Sequence record: MH051913
Length of the DNA stretch: 64,000 bases
Direction: 5' to 3' (one strand)
From: Enterobacteria phage vB_EcoM_IME281
The translations under genes were made by a program, and so were the position numbers. The notes below the pieces were generated by a model. It saw nothing but the letters and a program-made list of their open reading frames with translations, did no database searches and had not been told where the DNA came from. Positions 1 through 5,213 of the stretch are shown in pieces (within the stretch, counting starts at the first letter, position 1; every line of letters starts with the position of its first letter).

Positions 1-642
1 CGAGTTACTAAAGAAGATGGCTCAGAATCTGTTCTAACCGATACATTGATGGAAGCCTTCTGTATTATCCATAAGTTTAAGGTAGCTCCATGTCTGGCCA
101 CCGGTAGCTTTGAAGACCTTATTAAACTTCCTAATGATTTTGATTCAGTTGTTCCTGATTATAATTTTGCAGTGGATAACGCTGGCTTAACTATTGCAAA
201 CTCGACAGACTTTATTCCTAAGGTAGAAGGTAAAGTATTCACGGCTGAAGGCTTTGTACTGAAACCTGATGTTCCTACCTGGCTTCCTAATGGAAATCGT
301 GTAGCGATTAAATGTAAGAACTCTAAATTCAGCGAGAAGAAAAAGTCTGATAAGCCTATTAAAGTTGCAGTGGTTTTGTCCCAAGATGATATGGATTTGA
401 TGTGGCAATTCACCGATTATGTGACTGTTAACCGCATTAACAATGTCATCAGTAAGATTGGTGAAGTATCGCCGAAGGATTTCGGAAAGGTAATGGGCTT
501 GACTGTCCAGGATATCCTTGAAGAAGCCGCCCGTGAAGAATTGGAATTAACTGATGCGGAAAATCCTGTTGAAGTTAAAAAGCAACTTGTTGAGTGCGTA
601 AAAGATACCCTACGAGCAGTATGGATTGAATTAGTGTCGTAA
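1..642 (+). CDS. rnlB: RNA ligase 2 (Rnl2), C-terminal portion; reading frame is open to the window edge (5' truncated)
   Basis: Frame 1 has no stop from nt 1; protein (…[23 protein letters not shown]…[24 protein letters not shown]…WIELVS) matches recalled T4 Rnl2 C-terminus. Confidence 0.8.
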
Positions 643-650
643 AGACGACA

Positions 651-675
651 AAGGGACCGTAAGGTCCCTTTTTAG
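651..675. terminator. Bidirectional hairpin (aagggacc-gtaa-ggtccctt + T-run) between convergent rnlB and gp24 paralog
   Basis: Perfect 8-bp inverted repeat with tetraloop followed by TTTT. Confidence 0.6.
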
Positions 676-1955
676 TTTTTATCCAATGGAGGAAGTTTTA
701 CACCAAGATAAGAACTCAATTGACTTTGATTAGCCATTTTGTCCATATCCGCACCATCAATAATACGAGCTTCTTTGTCGTCTTTAGCGACGGTATAAGG
801 ATTCGCAGTCAATGCATACCGAGCCAATAAAGATATGGTAGGTTGCAATGAATCCGGGTCTACAATAACCTTGAATTCACCTACTGAAGTATCACCTTCA
901 TCATCAACCTCTTCGAGCCCTTCCGTATAAGGCGCATAATACAAAGATGCGACCGTCTGCCCTTCACCCATCTGAGCATTTACACCGACAATAACATAAT
1001 CACACGGGCTATTCATATCGGCATAAAGTGGTAGACCGTTCTTTAATACGCCATAAGCTAATTCGTCTTGGTCTTCTTTTTTCTCAACCCAACCAGATGC
1101 AGCTAAAATAGCAGCGCAGCGAGAAGAAGCTACTGCATAAGTACCTGCAAACGAAGTCTGGCGTTGAACAGCAGAATTCATTTCACACATATAGTAATAC
1201 AAGGTACGTGCTCGGTCTTGGGCGTTATCGTATTGTGGGTCTGTTAAGTTCAAGACACCTTTCTCAGAAACTCCTTGGACTTTAAAACGAGAACTTACTG
1301 TAATTAAGGACTGTAATACGTCTTTATTAATTTCTTCAGCCATTTGAATAGCCAAAATATTGTCTATAAAGTCCGGTGCATTAAACCCGTTGGATTCTAA
1401 ATCCTGGGCCAGTTCCACAGTCAAAGAAGTTTTAAGTTTACGCGATTTAACTTCAGTCTGCCACTTATCAATACGGAACCCTGCTTCAGCAATCTCAGGA
1501 TGGCCTTTTTCAAATTTATTGGTAAAGGCTGCATCAGACATCATACGAATATGGCCCGCGGCAATAGCTTCTGAAATAACTTCACTCAAATCGGTTTCAG
1601 TTGTTCCTGCAAACGGAGAAGCTTCTAATACCTTGAAAACCACACTTTCGAATTGGAACATATCGCCAACAGCATATGCTTCGTCTTTATCGGTGAACTC
1701 AGGAATGTTTTTACGTTCGAACATACCAATTTCACCCGCAAAAGTGGCTCCACCGAGATAAGTCATTTTATCGTCTGGGTTTAAAACACGGACACCATAT
1801 AATGCTGCAACAGGTTGAGTAGTTTTTTGTTCAGCAACAAGGGCTTTAAAAATTCTTTTATTAGTTGCCTGGGTATATGAAAGAAGATTAGGACGGGCGA
1901 CCTGGTTGGCCGCCGTCAAAGTTGATTCTTGTATTAATGCATTAATCTTTTTCAT
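672..1955 (-). CDS. Second, divergent copy of gp24-like head vertex protein (major-capsid fold)
   Basis: 427 aa; clearly related to the adjacent gp24 and to gp23 (…SRKLKTSLTVELAQDLESNGF…YYAPYTEGL…ANPYTVAKDDKEARIID…). Confidence 0.75.
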   Translation of the reverse strand: MKKINALIQESTLTAANQVARPNLLSYTQATNKRIFKALVAEQKTTQPVAALYGVRVLNPDDKMTYLGGATFAGEIGMFERKNIPEFTDKDEAYAVGDMFQFESVVFKVLEASPFAGTTETDLSEVISEAIAAGHIRMMSDAAFTNKFEKGHPEIAEAGFRIDKWQTEVKSRKLKTSLTVELAQDLESNGFNAPDFIDNILAIQMAEEINKDVLQSLITVSSRFKVQGVSEKGVLNLTDPQYDNAQDRARTLYYYMCEMNSAVQRQTSFAGTYAVASSRCAAILAASGWVEKKEDQDELAYGVLKNGLPLYADMNSPCDYVIVGVNAQMGEGQTVASLYYAPYTEGLEEVDDEGDTSVGEFKVIVDPDSLQPTISLLARYALTANPYTVAKDDKEARIIDGADMDKMANQSQLSSYLGVKLPPLDKN

Positions 1956-3236
1956 TTATGCCTCGTAAATAATTGGAGGAAGTTTAACACCAAGCAGATA
2001 AGACATGTTACTCTGGCCTGCCATTAAATCCATATTAGTTGCGTCTATAACACGAGCTTCTTTATCATCTTTAGCAACGGTATACGGGTTTGCTGAAAGT
2101 GCATAACGAACCATCAGAGAAATAGCCGGTTGCAAACTATCAGGGTCTACAATAACTTTATAGGCGCCAACATGTTCTTGGTCGTCTAAATCCAGACCTT
2201 CGGTATACGGAGCATAGAAAATAGAACCAACTACTTCATTACCACCGTAATCTTCTTTAACGCCTACGATAACATAATCTAAAGGACTATTAACATCACA
2301 GAATACAGGCAATCCGTTAATCAAATAACCATAAGCAGTTTCTGGGAGCCAAGCTTCATCTTCAGGTTTGTGTTTCAACCAACCTGAACCAGCGAGCATC
2401 GCAGCAACACGACTAGATGCGACAACAAACGTACCTGAATAAGAAGTGGTTTTCTGAATTTCAGAATTCATCTCACAAACCATTTCGTATAATTTACGTG
2501 CAGATTCTGGAGCACTGTCATAAGACAAATCGACAATACCGTTATCAGACACACCAGTAACTTTATAGCGTTTAGATACAGTTATTAGAGACTGCAGAAC
2601 GTCTTTATTAATTTCATCAGCCATTACAGTGGCTAAAAGGTCTTCTAAGAACGCAGGGGCGTCGAAGCCATTAGATTCCATGTCTTGGGCTAGTTCTACA
2701 GTCAAAGCGGTTTTAAGCTTACGGGACTTAACAGGGGCGTTCCATTTATTAACCTGGAATACTGCATTGCTAATTTCAACATCACCTGCTTCGAATTTTT
2801 CTGTGTGAGCCGCATCAGGAACCAGACGACATGTTAATGACACTAAACCTTCTTGAAGAGCATCAGCCAATTCTGTGGCGCTAGTGGACGCGAGTGGGCT
2901 TGCTTTAAGAGCCTTATAAACCACATTCTGGTACTTGAAATATCCACCCTGAGCAATCGCCTGGGCCTTATCTGTGAGTTCTGGGATAGTTTCACGGTCT
3001 TTAGAACCAACTTCACCACCATAAGAGGCACCTGTCTGGAAACTAAATTCATTATCAGGGGTAAGATATTTGACACCATACAGTGCAGCAATAGGCTGGC
3101 TAGTACGTTGTTCGGCGATAATATCACGGTAAATCAATTTGGTTGTAGCACGGGTCAAAGCAACAAGATTAGGGCGACCCAATGAGTTGCTGGAAGTAGT
3201 TGTTGACTCGCGCAGTAATTCGTTAATCTTTGCCAT
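1956..3236 (-). CDS. 24: gp24 head vertex protein
   Basis: 426 aa; strong match to recalled T4 gp24 (MAKINELLRESTTT…VKSRKLKT…VELAQD…NGFDAP.FLEDLLAT.MADEINKD). Confidence 0.88.
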   Translation of the reverse strand: MAKINELLRESTTTSSNSLGRPNLVALTRATTKLIYRDIIAEQRTSQPIAALYGVKYLTPDNEFSFQTGASYGGEVGSKDRETIPELTDKAQAIAQGGYFKYQNVVYKALKASPLASTSATELADALQEGLVSLTCRLVPDAAHTEKFEAGDVEISNAVFQVNKWNAPVKSRKLKTALTVELAQDMESNGFDAPAFLEDLLATVMADEINKDVLQSLITVSKRYKVTGVSDNGIVDLSYDSAPESARKLYEMVCEMNSEIQKTTSYSGTFVVASSRVAAMLAGSGWLKHKPEDEAWLPETAYGYLINGLPVFCDVNSPLDYVIVGVKEDYGGNEVVGSIFYAPYTEGLDLDDQEHVGAYKVIVDPDSLQPAISLMVRYALSANPYTVAKDDKEARVIDATNMDLMAGQSNMSYLLGVKLPPIIYEA

Positions 3237-3263
3237 TGCGCTTTCCTTATTGAGGGTATATGT

Positions 3264-3271
3264 TTATTTAT
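3264..3271 (-). promoter_or_regulatory. T4-type late promoter box TATAAATA upstream of gp24
   Basis: Plus-strand TATTTATA about 28 nt upstream of the gp24 start. Confidence 0.55.
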
Positions 3272-3278
3272 AAAAGTT

Positions 3279-3322
3279 GTTTACAGCAAGATTCTCACAT
3301 GTTACTATAGACCTATCAAAAC
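3279..3322 (+). promoter_or_regulatory. Early promoter/stem-loop cassette (PeSL-like): GTTTAC -35, TACTATAG -10, ACCTATCAA, flanking inverted repeat
   Basis: tgtttaca…catgttactatagacctatcaaaacatg; IR catgtt/aacatg around the -10. Confidence 0.6.
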
Positions 3323-3337
3323 ATGAGGAGATTAAAA

Positions 3338-3604
3338 ATGAACAAGTTAAACTTTATTCGTACTACTCTTTCCGCTCTTGATAAAGACATCAAAGCTCTG
3401 GTAGAAAAATTCGGTACCAATCCTAACGGTAATGCAGTTAATGCATTGGTTAAGAAATACGAAGCCCTGGCTTATGAAACTGATTTCTGGTGGAACGGTG
3501 AATATTCTACCCATACCAAAGACAAATCCGGTAACTGGCTGAAAATCCAAGAAAATCGTATTGACTTCCGTGATATCATAAACCGTCGAGTTAAGATTGC
3601 ATAG
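3338..3604 (+). CDS. Small hypothetical early protein inserted between gp24 and gp23 on the opposite strand
   Basis: ORF with GAGGAG SD 7 nt upstream of the ATG at 3338; preceded by PeSL-like promoter, followed by hairpin. Confidence 0.5.
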   Translation: MNKLNFIRTTLSALDKDIKALVEKFGTNPNGNAVNALVKKYEALAYETDFWWNGEYSTHTKDKSGNWLKIQENRIDFRDIINRRVKIA

Positions 3605-3618
3605 TATAGAAACAAGAA

Positions 3619-3640
3619 TGGGAGACCGAAGTCTCCCATA
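3619..3640. terminator. Hairpin gggagac-cgaa-gtctccc; probable terminator for gp23 (minus) and the small plus ORF
   Basis: 7-bp perfect stem with tetraloop; same stem sequence recurs at 40225 and 41740. Confidence 0.6.
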
Positions 3641-3653
3641 ATAAGGTTATATC

Positions 3654-5213
3654 TTAGATACCTTTAACATATACGCGACGGAAGTAACCATTCAGACCGA
3701 GGCTGTTAACGATGTCAGGCATACCGCTCTGAATACGTTTGGTAGGAGCCTGTGCAGACGGGTCAGCGAACGGGTTGATACCGATACCGTAACGAGTTTT
3801 GAAGCCCATTACCGGTTGGAAGTTCTTCGGATCGGAACCACGCAGCGGGGTCAGTGCAACGTACGGAGCATAGTAGATACCTGCGTCCATTTCGTTAGCG
3901 CCTTTATAACCGATGGTGAAGTAATCGGAACGTGCATACTGGTCGATGTAAACGCGATATTTACCACCAAGAACACCGGCAAATACTGCTTTGGTTGTGT
4001 CAACGTTGAAACCTTGACCCAGACCTTGAGCTGCATAACTTACAGAAGTATCAACTGCAGCCAGTACGTTAACTACGTTACGGGAAGCGATGATGAAGTT
4101 ACCAGCACCACGACCGGTCTGACGAGCGATTTCGGCTGCTTCTTTATCAATCTGGAACAGAAGGGCTTTAAAGCTCTCACCGGCCCAACGAGCACCACGG
4201 ATATCAATCGGGTCCTGGAAGTCAAACACACCAGCTTTAGCGCCAACGGTGTTGGTCATACCAGATTTACCAACCTGTGCAGAGTAGTTAATCCAATCGA
4301 TAACTTCACGGTTGATTTCGAGCATAATTTCGGTAGCAAGGATACCGGACAGTTCAGCATCTGCATCCATACCGTGTACTGCACGAAGGTCCTGTGCCAG
4401 TTCGATAGAGTAGCTTGCTTTCAGCTGACGGGATTTAGCTTCGATAACTTGTTTGTCGATGCGGAAGCCCATTTCGTTCCACGGGTTATCGGTAGAACCG
4501 TTAAAGCCTTCCTGAAGTTCAGCGATAGAAGTAGCCATACCTTCAGCCAATTCAGCCAACTTACCAGCTTCAATCAAAGCGGTAACAGCAGCATCCAGTT
4601 TAGCGGCATCAGTAGCAGCAGCATCAACGGTTACGGCTTCAACAGCCTGGAAGTGTGCAGCACCGGTAGCTTCGAAGAAGTGAGAATAAATTTTACCAAC
4701 TTCCAGAACTTTGCTTGCAGCCAGTGCTTCGAAAGATTCAGCAGCACCCTGACCAGAGAACATAGAGTCTGGAGAATACATCGGATGGAAAGCTTCTTTA
4801 GCGCCAGAAGCGATAGGGTCTTTACCATAAACTGCACGAAGGGCAAATACCTGGCCGGTAGGGTTATTCAGAGGCTGAACACCACAAATATCAAAAGCAA
4901 TCAGATGAGGAATAGCACGACGAACCATACCCATTACTGCCGGCCCAATCTGAGTTACAGCACCAGAAGTCTGGCCAGCTGCGATATTGGTAGCATCATA
5001 ACCGTGGTCACCACCAATTTCAGCTTCGGTCAGGAAAGAACCAAATGCTTCAGAGATTTTTTCATCACGATATTCCGGAGCAGTCAGGATGTCTTGTTCC
5101 TGGTTTTCGAAAATTTTAGCGATGATAGCTTGTTTAGAAGCACCCACGATTTCAGGAAGGGCTTCGTTTTCCAGCAGAGCGGACCATTTTTGAACTAATG
5201 CATTCTTTTTCAT
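3654..5213 (-). CDS. 23: gp23 major capsid protein
   Basis: 519 aa; long near-identical stretches to recalled T4 gp23 (…NPWNEMGFRIDKQVIEAKSRQLKA.YSIELAQDLRAVHGMDADAELSGILATEIMLEINREV…). Confidence 0.95.
   Translation of the reverse strand: MKKNALVQKWSALLENEALPEIVGASKQAIIAKIFENQEQDILTAPEYRDEKISEAFGSFLTEAEIGGDHGYDATNIAAGQTSGAVTQIGPAVMGMVRRAIPHLIAFDICGVQPLNNPTGQVFALRAVYGKDPIASGAKEAFHPMYSPDSMFSGQGAAESFEALAASKVLEVGKIYSHFFEATGAAHFQAVEAVTVDAAATDAAKLDAAVTALIEAGKLAELAEGMATSIAELQEGFNGSTDNPWNEMGFRIDKQVIEAKSRQLKASYSIELAQDLRAVHGMDADAELSGILATEIMLEINREVIDWINYSAQVGKSGMTNTVGAKAGVFDFQDPIDIRGARWAGESFKALLFQIDKEAAEIARQTGRGAGNFIIASRNVVNVLAAVDTSVSYAAQGLGQGFNVDTTKAVFAGVLGGKYRVYIDQYARSDYFTIGYKGANEMDAGIYYAPYVALTPLRGSDPKNFQPVMGFKTRYGIGINPFADPSAQAPTKRIQSGMPDIVNSLGLNGYFRRVYVKGI

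What the first reader, a model, noticed from the sequence alone, without database searches (positions are those of the whole stretch)
672..3236. Tandem duplication of the gp24 vertex-protein gene
Two adjacent minus-strand genes (427 and 426 aa) are both gp24-like. The copy at 1956-3236 is close to T4 gp24; the copy at 672-1955 is markedly more divergent. T4 has a single gp24 that occupies the eleven non-portal vertices. Two vertex paralogs could imply heterogeneous vertices, a specialised vertex, or a decoration role.
Basis: seen in the sequence. Interest (0 to 1): 0.55.

Follow-up and report, generated by a model that had tools for sequence, protein, structure and literature searches.

The report
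Two old capsid vertex genes, JS98-type phage
This T4-like phage carries two back-to-back genes for the protein that caps the corners of its head; the pair is real, ancient, conserved and already annotated in relatives such as phage JS98, but nobody has shown why two are needed.

Summary
ORFs 1956-3236 (426 aa, "24a") and 672-1955 (427 aa, "24b") on the minus strand are both full-length gp24 vertex-protein homologues. They are 56% identical to each other. 24a is 70% identical to T4 gp24 and 24b is 56%.

The window is a Dhakavirus. Its 24b is 100% identical to JS98 24b, and GenBank already annotates the pair as 24a/24b, so the feature is not new.

It is not a recent tandem duplication. 24b belongs to a monophyletic paralogue lineage (100% bootstrap) that branched off before the gp24 of T4, RB69-type, Karam-, Moon- and Dhakaviruses diverged from one another. 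In all 29 loci examined, 24b sits directly behind a 24a-type gene with stop and start abutting or overlapping. These loci come from Dhaka-, Gapriver-, Gelderland- and Marfavirus, Erwinia FBB1 and metagenome contigs.

Both copies are under equally strong purifying selection (dN/dS about 0.03-0.08) and both keep the prohead-protease motif. They share one late promoter and one terminator. Neither is a pseudogene.

Most likely both are processed shell subunits at the fivefold vertices. How they divide the vertices is unknown. Shigella phage SP18 has a 98%-identical gp23 and only one gp24, so one gene can suffice.

Interest is modest: known feature, open function.

The parts
3618..3639 (-). Intrinsic terminator hairpin just after the gene 23 stop; it separates the gene 23 transcript from the 24a-24b unit
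   Evidence: ATGGGAGAC-TTCG-GTCTCCCAT followed by TCTTGTTTCT
3265..3272 (-). T4-type late promoter TATAAATA, 29 nt upstream of the 24a ATG. It is the only one serving 24a and 24b.
   Evidence: Exact match. The window has 16 such motifs against 7.1 expected from shuffles. No motif with 1 mismatch or fewer lies inside 24a.
3244..3248 (-). Ribosome-binding site AAGGA of 24a
   Evidence: Read from the sequence
1956..3236 (-). Gene 24a: canonical gp24-type capsid vertex protein precursor, 426 aa, 69.8% identical to T4 gp24; propeptide MAKINELLRE|S
1961..1964 (-). GAGG ribosome-binding site of 24b, embedded in the last codons of 24a (tac GAG Gca TAA ATG); a translational-coupling junction
   Evidence: The same arrangement (Shine-Dalgarno sequence inside the 3' end of 24a, stop/start abutting or overlapping) is seen in 18 further loci.
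672..1955 (-). Gene 24b: second, anciently diverged gp24-family paralogue, 427 aa, 55.7% identical to T4 gp24, 56% to 24a, 100% identical to JS98 24b; propeptide MKKINALIQE|S
650..671 (.). Bidirectional terminator hairpin between 24b and the convergent rnlB gene
   Evidence: AAAGGGACC-TTAC-GGTCCCTTT with a T-rich tail on both strands

Best explanation
24a and 24b are two anciently separated paralogues of the T4 gp24 capsid vertex protein, kept as one late transcription unit: late promoter at 3265-3272, then 24a, then 24b, then the terminator at 650-671. 24b has no promoter of its own. It is translated from a Shine-Dalgarno sequence inside the end of 24a, with the 24a stop touching the 24b start (translational coupling). 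The two proteins are therefore made together, late, in a fixed ratio. Both are made as precursors with the 10-residue N-terminal piece ending in (L/I)-x-E, the site cut by the prohead protease gp21. From this I infer that both are built into the prohead shell from inside and trimmed like T4 gp24. Both have the complete gp24 (not gp23) architecture, so the most likely place for both is the pentameric, non-portal vertices. The class-specific substitutions of 24b cluster in the N-arm and I-domain linker 1. In T4 these two elements pair with each other between neighbouring subunits of one pentamer. I therefore infer, more weakly, that 24b prefers 24b neighbours, giving separate a5 and b5 pentamers and so two kinds of vertex. 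Shown here: gene anatomy, expression signals, age, co-inheritance, purifying selection, and fold. Inferred: incorporation into the shell and cleavage. Speculative: homopentamers and which vertices each occupies. My confidence is about 0.7 that both are functional, co-expressed, processed shell subunits at the fivefold vertices, and only about 0.3 for the sub-claim of separate a5 and b5 pentamers.
For: Anatomy and signals. Family and fold: both reach PF07068 at about 330 bits. Both align full length to T4 gp24. The AF2 model of 24b (pLDDT 76) matches gp24* in the mature T4 capsid (5vf3_a) at TM 0.83-0.85, against about 0.6 for gp23. Protease motif: L(L/I)xE|S at residues 7-11 in every a and b copy of 13 genomes. 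Selection: within Dhakavirus, Nei-Gojobori dN/dS is 0.04-0.08 for 24a and 0.03-0.07 for 24b at dS 0.1-1.2. Age and co-inheritance: the b clade has 100% bootstrap, and the clade of all a-types plus T4, Mosig, Karam, Moon, EcS1, 4S, SP18, PM2 and PEi20 excludes b at 100%. The branching inside the b clade mirrors that of the a copies. 29 of 29 loci with a b gene have an a gene immediately upstream, including lineages only 65-70% identical to this 24b. No recent foreign origin: GC3 is 0.311 in both and RSCU r=0.84. Interface signal: 13 class-specific sites, 7 of them within T4 residues 26-68 (binomial p=1e-4). Residues 26-29 pair with the I-domain linker of the adjacent gp24* in the expanded T4 head (PMC9546572). 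Divergence between a and b is greatest in I-linker 1 (39% identity) and the I domain (38%), while within-class conservation is the same for a and b.
Against: I found no direct protein evidence (virion mass spectrometry, structure or genetics) for any two-copy phage. All ten literature searches of the held library returned nothing on 24b. One vertex gene is enough for T4. It is also enough for Shigella phage SP18, whose gp23 is 98% identical to that of the two-copy phage VR7, so 24b is not structurally indispensable for this lattice. In T4 all 55 gp24* subunits are conformationally alike (PMC9546572), so no obvious geometric need for two vertex types exists. The homopentamer inference rests on 13 sites and on T4 contacts taken from the literature, not on a model of this phage.
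Confidence: 0.7

Rival explanations
1. Interchangeable subunits. 24b is a second vertex subunit that mixes freely with 24a in the same pentamers. It is kept for dosage or for assembly robustness, for example at different temperatures or hosts, without any positional specialisation.
For: Co-transcription and translational coupling fit a simple co-supply. T4 and SP18 manage with one gene. 118 of 433 alignment columns are near-invariant in both classes, including the core motifs.
Against: Plain redundancy is rarely kept for this long in a phage genome. The pair has persisted through divergence to 62-70% identity, with equal and strong purifying selection on both copies. 24b also has its own fixed residues at positions invariant in all other gp24s: T32N, L34R, Y57V, E335Q.
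Confidence: 0.2
2. Not a vertex subunit. 24b has moved to another role, such as a minor shell position (for example next to the portal or within particular hexamers), an assembly factor that is not retained, or an outer decoration.
For: No direct evidence was found. The surface-exposed I domain and its linkers are the most diverged parts between a and b, which would also fit new partners.
Against: 24b has the complete gp24 architecture and length, and its best structural match is in-capsid gp24*. It lacks the 65-residue N-terminal piece of gp23. It keeps the gp21 cleavage motif, which makes sense only for a protein facing the prohead interior. Decoration proteins such as Hoc and Soc bind from outside after expansion and are not processed (PMC3012670, PMC9546572).
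Confidence: 0.07
3. Recent tandem duplicate drifting towards loss. This is the first reader's implicit model together with its stated refuter (a pseudogene or non-structural copy).
For: Tandem position, equal length and lower identity to T4. One related phage, SP18, has no 24b.
Against: a and b as sisters have 0% bootstrap, and 24a groups with T4 gp24 to the exclusion of 24b at 100%. Relative-rate tests are mostly non-significant. dN/dS of 24b is 0.03-0.07. The ORF is intact in 29 of 29 loci. There are no gene-conversion tracts; the best direct repeat is 186 nt at 73%.
Confidence: 0.02

Closest known systems
Phage JS98 genes 24a/24b (GenBank EF469154 / NC_010105) and the equivalent pairs in JS10, IME08, VR5 ('capsid vertex protein I/II') and VR7 (24(1)/24(2))
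   Same: It is the same locus. The order gp23 - small opposite-strand ORF - 24a - 24b - rnlB is identical. The region is 96.6-96.7% identical in nucleotides to JS98, LHE83 and MN04. The 24b protein is 100% identical to JS98 24b and 24a is 97.9% identical.
   Different: Nothing essential differs. 24a is more diverged from JS98 (dS 0.23) than 24b is (dS 0.025), which indicates a recombination mosaic.
T4 gp24 head vertex protein (PDB 1yue, 5vf3, 7vs5)
   Same: Both copies share its length, HK97-type fold with I domain, 10-residue propeptide with a gp21 site, late expression downstream of gene 23, and position next to rnlB.
   Different: T4 has one gene that fills all 11 vertices. Here there are two, and 24b carries fixed replacements at positions invariant in all single-copy and 24a-type proteins.
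The gp23/gp24 pair itself (an older duplication of the T4 capsid gene into a hexamer-former and a pentamer-former)
   Same: Capsid-gene duplication followed by specialisation of shell position; the genes are adjacent and expressed late (PMC10580926, PMC3012670).
   Different: gp23 and gp24 share about 21-28% identity and differ in length and propeptide. 24a and 24b share 56% identity and the same architecture, so any division of labour would be between vertices, not between hexamers and pentamers.

Membership tests
T4 gp24 capsid vertex protein family (Pfam PF07068, PHROG 138) | Full-length sequence homology to T4 gp24 | tested here: met
   24a: E=1.8e-196, residues 1-424 aligned to 1-425 of 1yue. 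24b: E=4.3e-150, residues 1-424 aligned to 1-423. PF07068 at about 330 bits against a cut-off of 24.4. phrog_138.
T4 gp24 capsid vertex protein family (Pfam PF07068, PHROG 138) | gp24-type rather than gp23-type architecture (about 427 aa, no 65-residue N-terminal delta piece) | tested here: met
   426 and 427 aa. Only 28% identity over about 300 residues to the window's own gp23 (519 aa). The 24b model has TM 0.83-0.85 to gp24* (5vf3_a) against about 0.6 to gp23* chains.
T4 gp24 capsid vertex protein family (Pfam PF07068, PHROG 138) | HK97-like fold with inserted I domain | tested here: met
   AF2 model of 24b: mean pLDDT 76, pTM 0.71. Foldseek top hits are T4 gp24 chains, and HK97-fold capsid proteins follow further down. 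24a was not modelled, but it is 70% identical to 1yue.
T4 gp24 capsid vertex protein family (Pfam PF07068, PHROG 138) | 10-residue N-terminal propeptide removed by prohead protease gp21 at (L/I)-x-E | tested here: inconclusive
   The motif is present and conserved: LLRE|S in 24a, and LIQE|S, LIHE|S, LIRE|S, LIKE|S or LLRE|S in 24b across 13 genomes. E10 and S11 are invariant in a 52-sequence alignment. Actual cleavage cannot be tested with these tools.
T4 gp24 capsid vertex protein family (Pfam PF07068, PHROG 138) | Late-gene expression immediately downstream of gene 23 | tested here: met
   TATAAATA at 3265-3272 with a terminator on each side. 24b is coupled to 24a. These are sequence signals only; no transcript data were available.
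T4 gp24 capsid vertex protein family (Pfam PF07068, PHROG 138) | Forms the pentamers at the 11 non-portal vertices of the virion | not testable with these tools
   This needs virion proteomics or cryo-EM. No solved structure of a two-paralogue vertex exists in the PDB copy.
Recent in-genome tandem duplicate (in-paralogue) | The two copies are each other's closest relatives | tested here: not met
   Bootstrap support for a+b as sisters is 0%. 24a groups with single-copy gp24s, T4 included, to the exclusion of 24b at 100%.
Pseudogene / decaying duplicate | Frame disruptions or relaxed selection (dN/dS approaching 1) in relatives | tested here: not met
   The 24b ORF is intact in 29 of 29 loci. 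dN/dS is 0.03-0.07 within Dhakavirus, the same as for 24a.

The most novel reading that the evidence does not exclude
24a and 24b form separate homopentamers that occupy geometrically different vertex classes of the prolate head. One possible split is the five portal-proximal vertices against the six distal ones; another is ten ring vertices against the single apical vertex. The 'eleven equivalent vertices' of the T4 model would then be chemically non-equivalent in a large natural group of T4-like phages, which would give a handle on how cap and midsection are distinguished during head-length determination.
Probability: 0.2. Interest if true: 0.7.

Novelty: already known. Interest (0 to 1): 0.3.

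Why it matters
The T4 head is the reference model for prolate capsid assembly, and it is described as having one vertex protein at eleven equivalent corners. About a tenth of the Tevenvirinae-level phage records searched carry a conserved second vertex paralogue (about 116 of 1131). These include therapeutic-candidate coliphages (JS98 group) and Salmonella phages (Gelderlandvirus). The second copy has been maintained under strong selection for a long time, yet no function was found for it in the literature I could search. If the two proteins mark different vertices, that would be a natural case of symmetry-breaking in an HK97-fold capsid and would bear on head-length control. If they simply mix, it is a curiosity. 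For this scan the practical message is that the locus is a correctly recognised, already annotated feature of JS98-like phages.

Tried and rejected
1. Literature. All 10 full-text searches and several targeted reads found no statement on the function, virion presence or stoichiometry of 24b. The JS98 genome paper (PMC2168658 / PMID 17693496) is not held.

2. Accelerated-evolution model for 24b. Tajima relative-rate tests against nine reference sequences were mostly non-significant. WIN_a against WIN_b gave 45 vs 41, 41 vs 41 and 63 vs 63 unique changes.

3. Recent lateral acquisition of 24b. This is rejected by identical GC3 and similar codon usage and by co-divergence with 24a.

4. SP18's single gp24 as an a/b chimera made by unequal crossover. 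Rejected. It is a-class along its whole length, and in its C-terminal half it is closer to Kanagawavirus PEi20 than to VR7 24(1). This is module replacement, not fusion.

5. Gene conversion between a and b. None found. The best shared tract is 186 nt at 73%.

6. A separate late promoter for 24b. No TATAAATA with 1 mismatch or fewer lies within 24a.

7. Jiaodavirus single gp24 (63% identical to both a and b) as an a/b recombinant. The sliding window shows no clean switch; it looks like a short-branch, near-basal sequence.

8. A phage with 24b but no 24a. None among the 29 b-containing loci.
Full report
**Observation**

The window holds two abutting minus-strand ORFs, 1956..3236 (426 aa) and 672..1955 (427 aa). 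I call them 24a and 24b, following the GenBank names in phage JS98.
- Both match Pfam PF07068 (Gp23/gp24 capsid family) at about 330 bits against a cut-off of 24.4. Both match PHROG 138.
- They are 56% identical to each other (E=7e-180).
- They are only about 28% identical over about 300 residues to the gp23 gene that lies upstream at 3654..5213.
- Against solved structures, both align from end to end with T4 gp24 (1yue): E=1.8e-196 for 24a and 4.3e-150 for 24b.
- By tblastn, 24a is 69.8% identical to T4 gp24 and 24b is 55.7%.
- T4 has a single gp24 between gene 23/segD and rnlB.

**Identity of the window and prior knowledge**

- The 3.1-kb region is 96.6-96.7% identical in nucleotides to Escherichia phages LHE83, MN04 and JS98 (genus Dhakavirus).
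- The 24b protein is 100% identical to JS98 24b.
- The JS98 record annotates the two genes as 24a and 24b. VR7 uses 24(1)/24(2), and VR5 uses 'capsid vertex protein I/II'.
- At E<1e-100, 1131 phage records match 24b at 1247 places. About 116 records therefore carry two gp24 genes.

The feature is already in the databases. I could not find any discussion of its function. All ten full-text searches and several targeted reads returned nothing relevant. The JS98 genome paper is not in the held library.

**Anatomy and expression signals**

- A terminator hairpin follows gene 23 at 3639-3618.
- A perfect T4 late promoter, TATAAATA, lies at 3265-3272, 29 nt before the 24a ATG. An AAGGA ribosome-binding site lies at 3244-3248.
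- Inside 24a there is no late-promoter motif, even allowing one mismatch.
- The junction reads tac-GAG-Gca-TAA-ATG. A GAGG Shine-Dalgarno sequence lies in the last codons of 24a, and the 24a stop touches the 24b start.
- A bidirectional terminator at 650-671 closes the unit against the convergent rnlB gene.
- The same junction design is found in 18 further loci from distant lineages: a Shine-Dalgarno sequence within the 3' end of 24a, with stop and start abutting, overlapping (TAATG, ATGA) or 1-2 nt apart.

From this I infer one late mRNA and translational coupling. The two proteins are co-produced in a fixed ratio.

**Distribution**

Tandem a-b pairs occur in:
- Dhakavirus (JS98, JS10, VR5, Bp7, ESCO10, dhaeg);
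- Gaprivervirus VR7;
- Gelderlandvirus (Salmonella phage AKM_NP4);
- Marfavirus (Klebsiella phage P545);
- Erwinia phage FBB1;
- uncultivated contigs whose b copy is only 65-70% identical to this one.

In a census of every locus fetched, 29 of 29 loci with a b-type gene have an a-type gene immediately upstream on the same strand. No locus has b alone.

Single-copy lineages include T4, Mosigvirus, Karamvirus, Winklervirus, Jiaodavirus, Kagamiyamavirus, Acinetobacter phages, Krischvirus, Pseudotevenvirus, Slopekvirus and Tulanevirus.

**Age of the pair**

I built a neighbour-joining tree of 43 gp24 sequences. It used 409 columns, Kimura or gamma distances, 300 bootstraps, and was rooted with Krisch-, Pseudoteven-, Slopek- and Tulanevirus.
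- The b clade has 100% support.
- A clade containing all a-types plus the single gp24 of T4, Mosig, Karam, Moon, EcS1, Serratia 4S, SP18, PM2 and PEi20 excludes b, also at 100%.
- Support for a and b as sisters is 0%.
- Inside the b clade the branching is an FBB1-like group against Marfa, then Gelderland, then Dhaka/VR7. This mirrors the branching of the accompanying a copies, so the two genes have travelled together.
- Depths are similar. Window against FBB1 is 64% identity for a and 70% for b. Window against P545 is 73% and 80%. Window against AKM_NP4 is 86% and 84%.
- Tajima relative-rate tests of a against b with nine reference sequences are mostly non-significant, for example 45 vs 41, 41 vs 41 and 63 vs 63 unique changes.
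- GC3 is 0.311 in both genes, and their codon usage correlates at r=0.84.
- No gene-conversion tract exists between them.

So 24b is not a fast-evolving recent copy of 24a. It is an old paralogue that split off before the gp24 of the core Tevenvirinae diversified.

Single-copy phages are nested between the two groups of two-copy phages in the a tree (80-82% support). The present distribution therefore needs either several losses of b or transfers of the a-b module. The similar a-a and b-b depths mildly favour an ancestral pair with losses. I could not run the maximum-likelihood reconciliation that would settle this.

**Selection and conserved features**

- Nei-Gojobori dN/dS within Dhakavirus (dS 0.1-1.2) is 0.04-0.08 for 24a and 0.03-0.07 for 24b.
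- In a matched set of ten genomes, within-class conservation by region is essentially the same for a and b. The b copy is slightly higher in I-linker 1, the I domain and the A domain.
- Every a and b copy keeps the N-terminal L-(L/I)-x-E|S motif at residues 7-11. E10 and S11 are invariant in a 52-sequence alignment.
- In T4, the prohead protease gp21 removes the first 10 residues of gp24 (PMC9546572).
- An AlphaFold2 model of 24b (pLDDT 76, pTM 0.71) matches gp24* in the mature T4 capsid best (5vf3_a, TM 0.83-0.85). It matches gp23* chains only at about 0.6.

These results reject the pseudogene alternative. They argue that 24b is a processed shell subunit of the gp24 kind.

**Where a and b differ**

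- Thirteen alignment positions are at least 85% conserved within the b class and at least 85% conserved in all other gp24s, but with different residues. In T4 numbering they are 26, 32, 34, 36, 56, 57, 68, 204, 261, 267, 328, 335 and 415.
- Seven of the thirteen lie within residues 26-68 (binomial p=1e-4).
- By region, a-versus-b identity within a genome is lowest in I-domain linker 1 (39%), the I domain (38%) and the 348-359 loop (44%).
- In the expanded T4 head, residues 26-29 of gp24* form a parallel beta interaction with an I-domain linker of the neighbouring subunit of the same pentamer. I-linker 2 and the AP loop contact the neighbouring gp23 hexamers (PMC9546572).

Class-specific change on both sides of an intra-pentamer contact is what one would expect if b prefers b neighbours. 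This is an inference from T4 contacts, not a test.

**A natural swap**

Shigella phage SP18 is in the same genus as VR7. Its gp23 is 98% identical to VR7's and 97% identical to the window's. It has a single gp24 between the same flanking genes. That gene is a-class along its whole length. In its C-terminal half it is closer to Kanagawavirus PEi20 than to VR7 24(1). It is therefore a module replacement, not an a/b fusion.

Conversely, the VR7 a/b pair nests within Dhakavirus diversity. Its b copy is 95% identical to the window's, closer than JS10's at 91%.

The vertex module therefore moves by recombination, and essentially the same gp23 lattice can be closed by one gene or by the pair. This limits how indispensable 24b can be.

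**Mechanism and rivals**

*Best-supported reading (about 0.7 for the general claim).* Both genes encode functional, co-expressed, gp21-processed shell subunits that serve at the fivefold vertices. Within that reading I give about 0.3 to separate a5 and b5 pentamers, which would make two vertex kinds.

*Rivals:*
- Free mixing or dosage: about 0.2. It is disfavoured by long retention with fixed class-specific residues.
- A non-vertex role: about 0.07. It is disfavoured by the fold and the protease motif.
- A decaying recent duplicate: about 0.02. It is refuted.

No computational tool available here can locate the two proteins in the capsid.

**Verdict**

The feature is already annotated in JS98 and in about 116 phage records, so novelty for the scan is low.

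The open question of why about one tenth of Tevenvirinae-level records in this collection keep two vertex proteins is real. It can be tested directly by quantitative virion proteomics, asymmetric cryo-EM and single-gene knockouts.

Noticed in passing
window 3323-3604 (+): A 93-aa ORF lies on the opposite strand between gene 23 and 24a. It matches phrog_6003 (unknown function, E=3e-49) and has no Pfam hit. It is conserved at this spot in JS98 (orf173), JS10, VR5, VR7, SP18, Bp7 and a Mosigvirus. T4, IME08 and IME341 carry the segD homing endonuclease gene in this same gene 23-gene 24 interval. A sigma-70-like motif lies at 3280-3308 (+).
   Followed up: partly
window 672-3236 compared with L001 (JS98): Against JS98, 24a has dS 0.228 and 2% amino-acid difference, but 24b has dS 0.025 and is identical in protein. 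A recombination mosaic boundary therefore lies near the a/b junction.
   Followed up: partly
L018 (SP18) compared with L002 (VR7): Two members of Gaprivervirus share 98%-identical gp23 but differ in the vertex module. VR7 has a Dhakavirus-like 24a+24b pair. SP18 has one gp24 whose C-terminal half resembles Kanagawavirus PEi20. This is evidence for exchange of the vertex module between genera.
   Followed up: yes
L023 4890-6427; L025 2634-4140; L026 6326-7841; L027 2676-4506: In the FBB1-like metagenome lineage, two extra same-strand ORFs follow 24b directly, before the convergent genes that lead to rnlB. One is 332-352 aa. The other is about 165 aa, or 279 aa in L027. Neither has a Pfam family, apart from one faint collagen hit. 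They could be additional late or head proteins. VR7 likewise has a collagen-repeat protein at the hoc position.
   Followed up: no
window 46-642 (+): This is the C-terminal part of RNA ligase 2 (rnlB; PF18043, E=2e-19). The gene converges on 24b and shares the bidirectional terminator at 650-671. Its 5' end is cut off by the window start.
   Followed up: partly
L006 (Klebsiella phage Metamorpho, Jiaodavirus), gp24 at 3001-4281: The single Jiaodavirus gp24 is equally distant (63-64% identity) from 24a and 24b. It is the closest non-b relative of 24b and behaves as a short-branch, near-basal sequence. It would be useful for rooting any future a/b analysis.
   Followed up: partly
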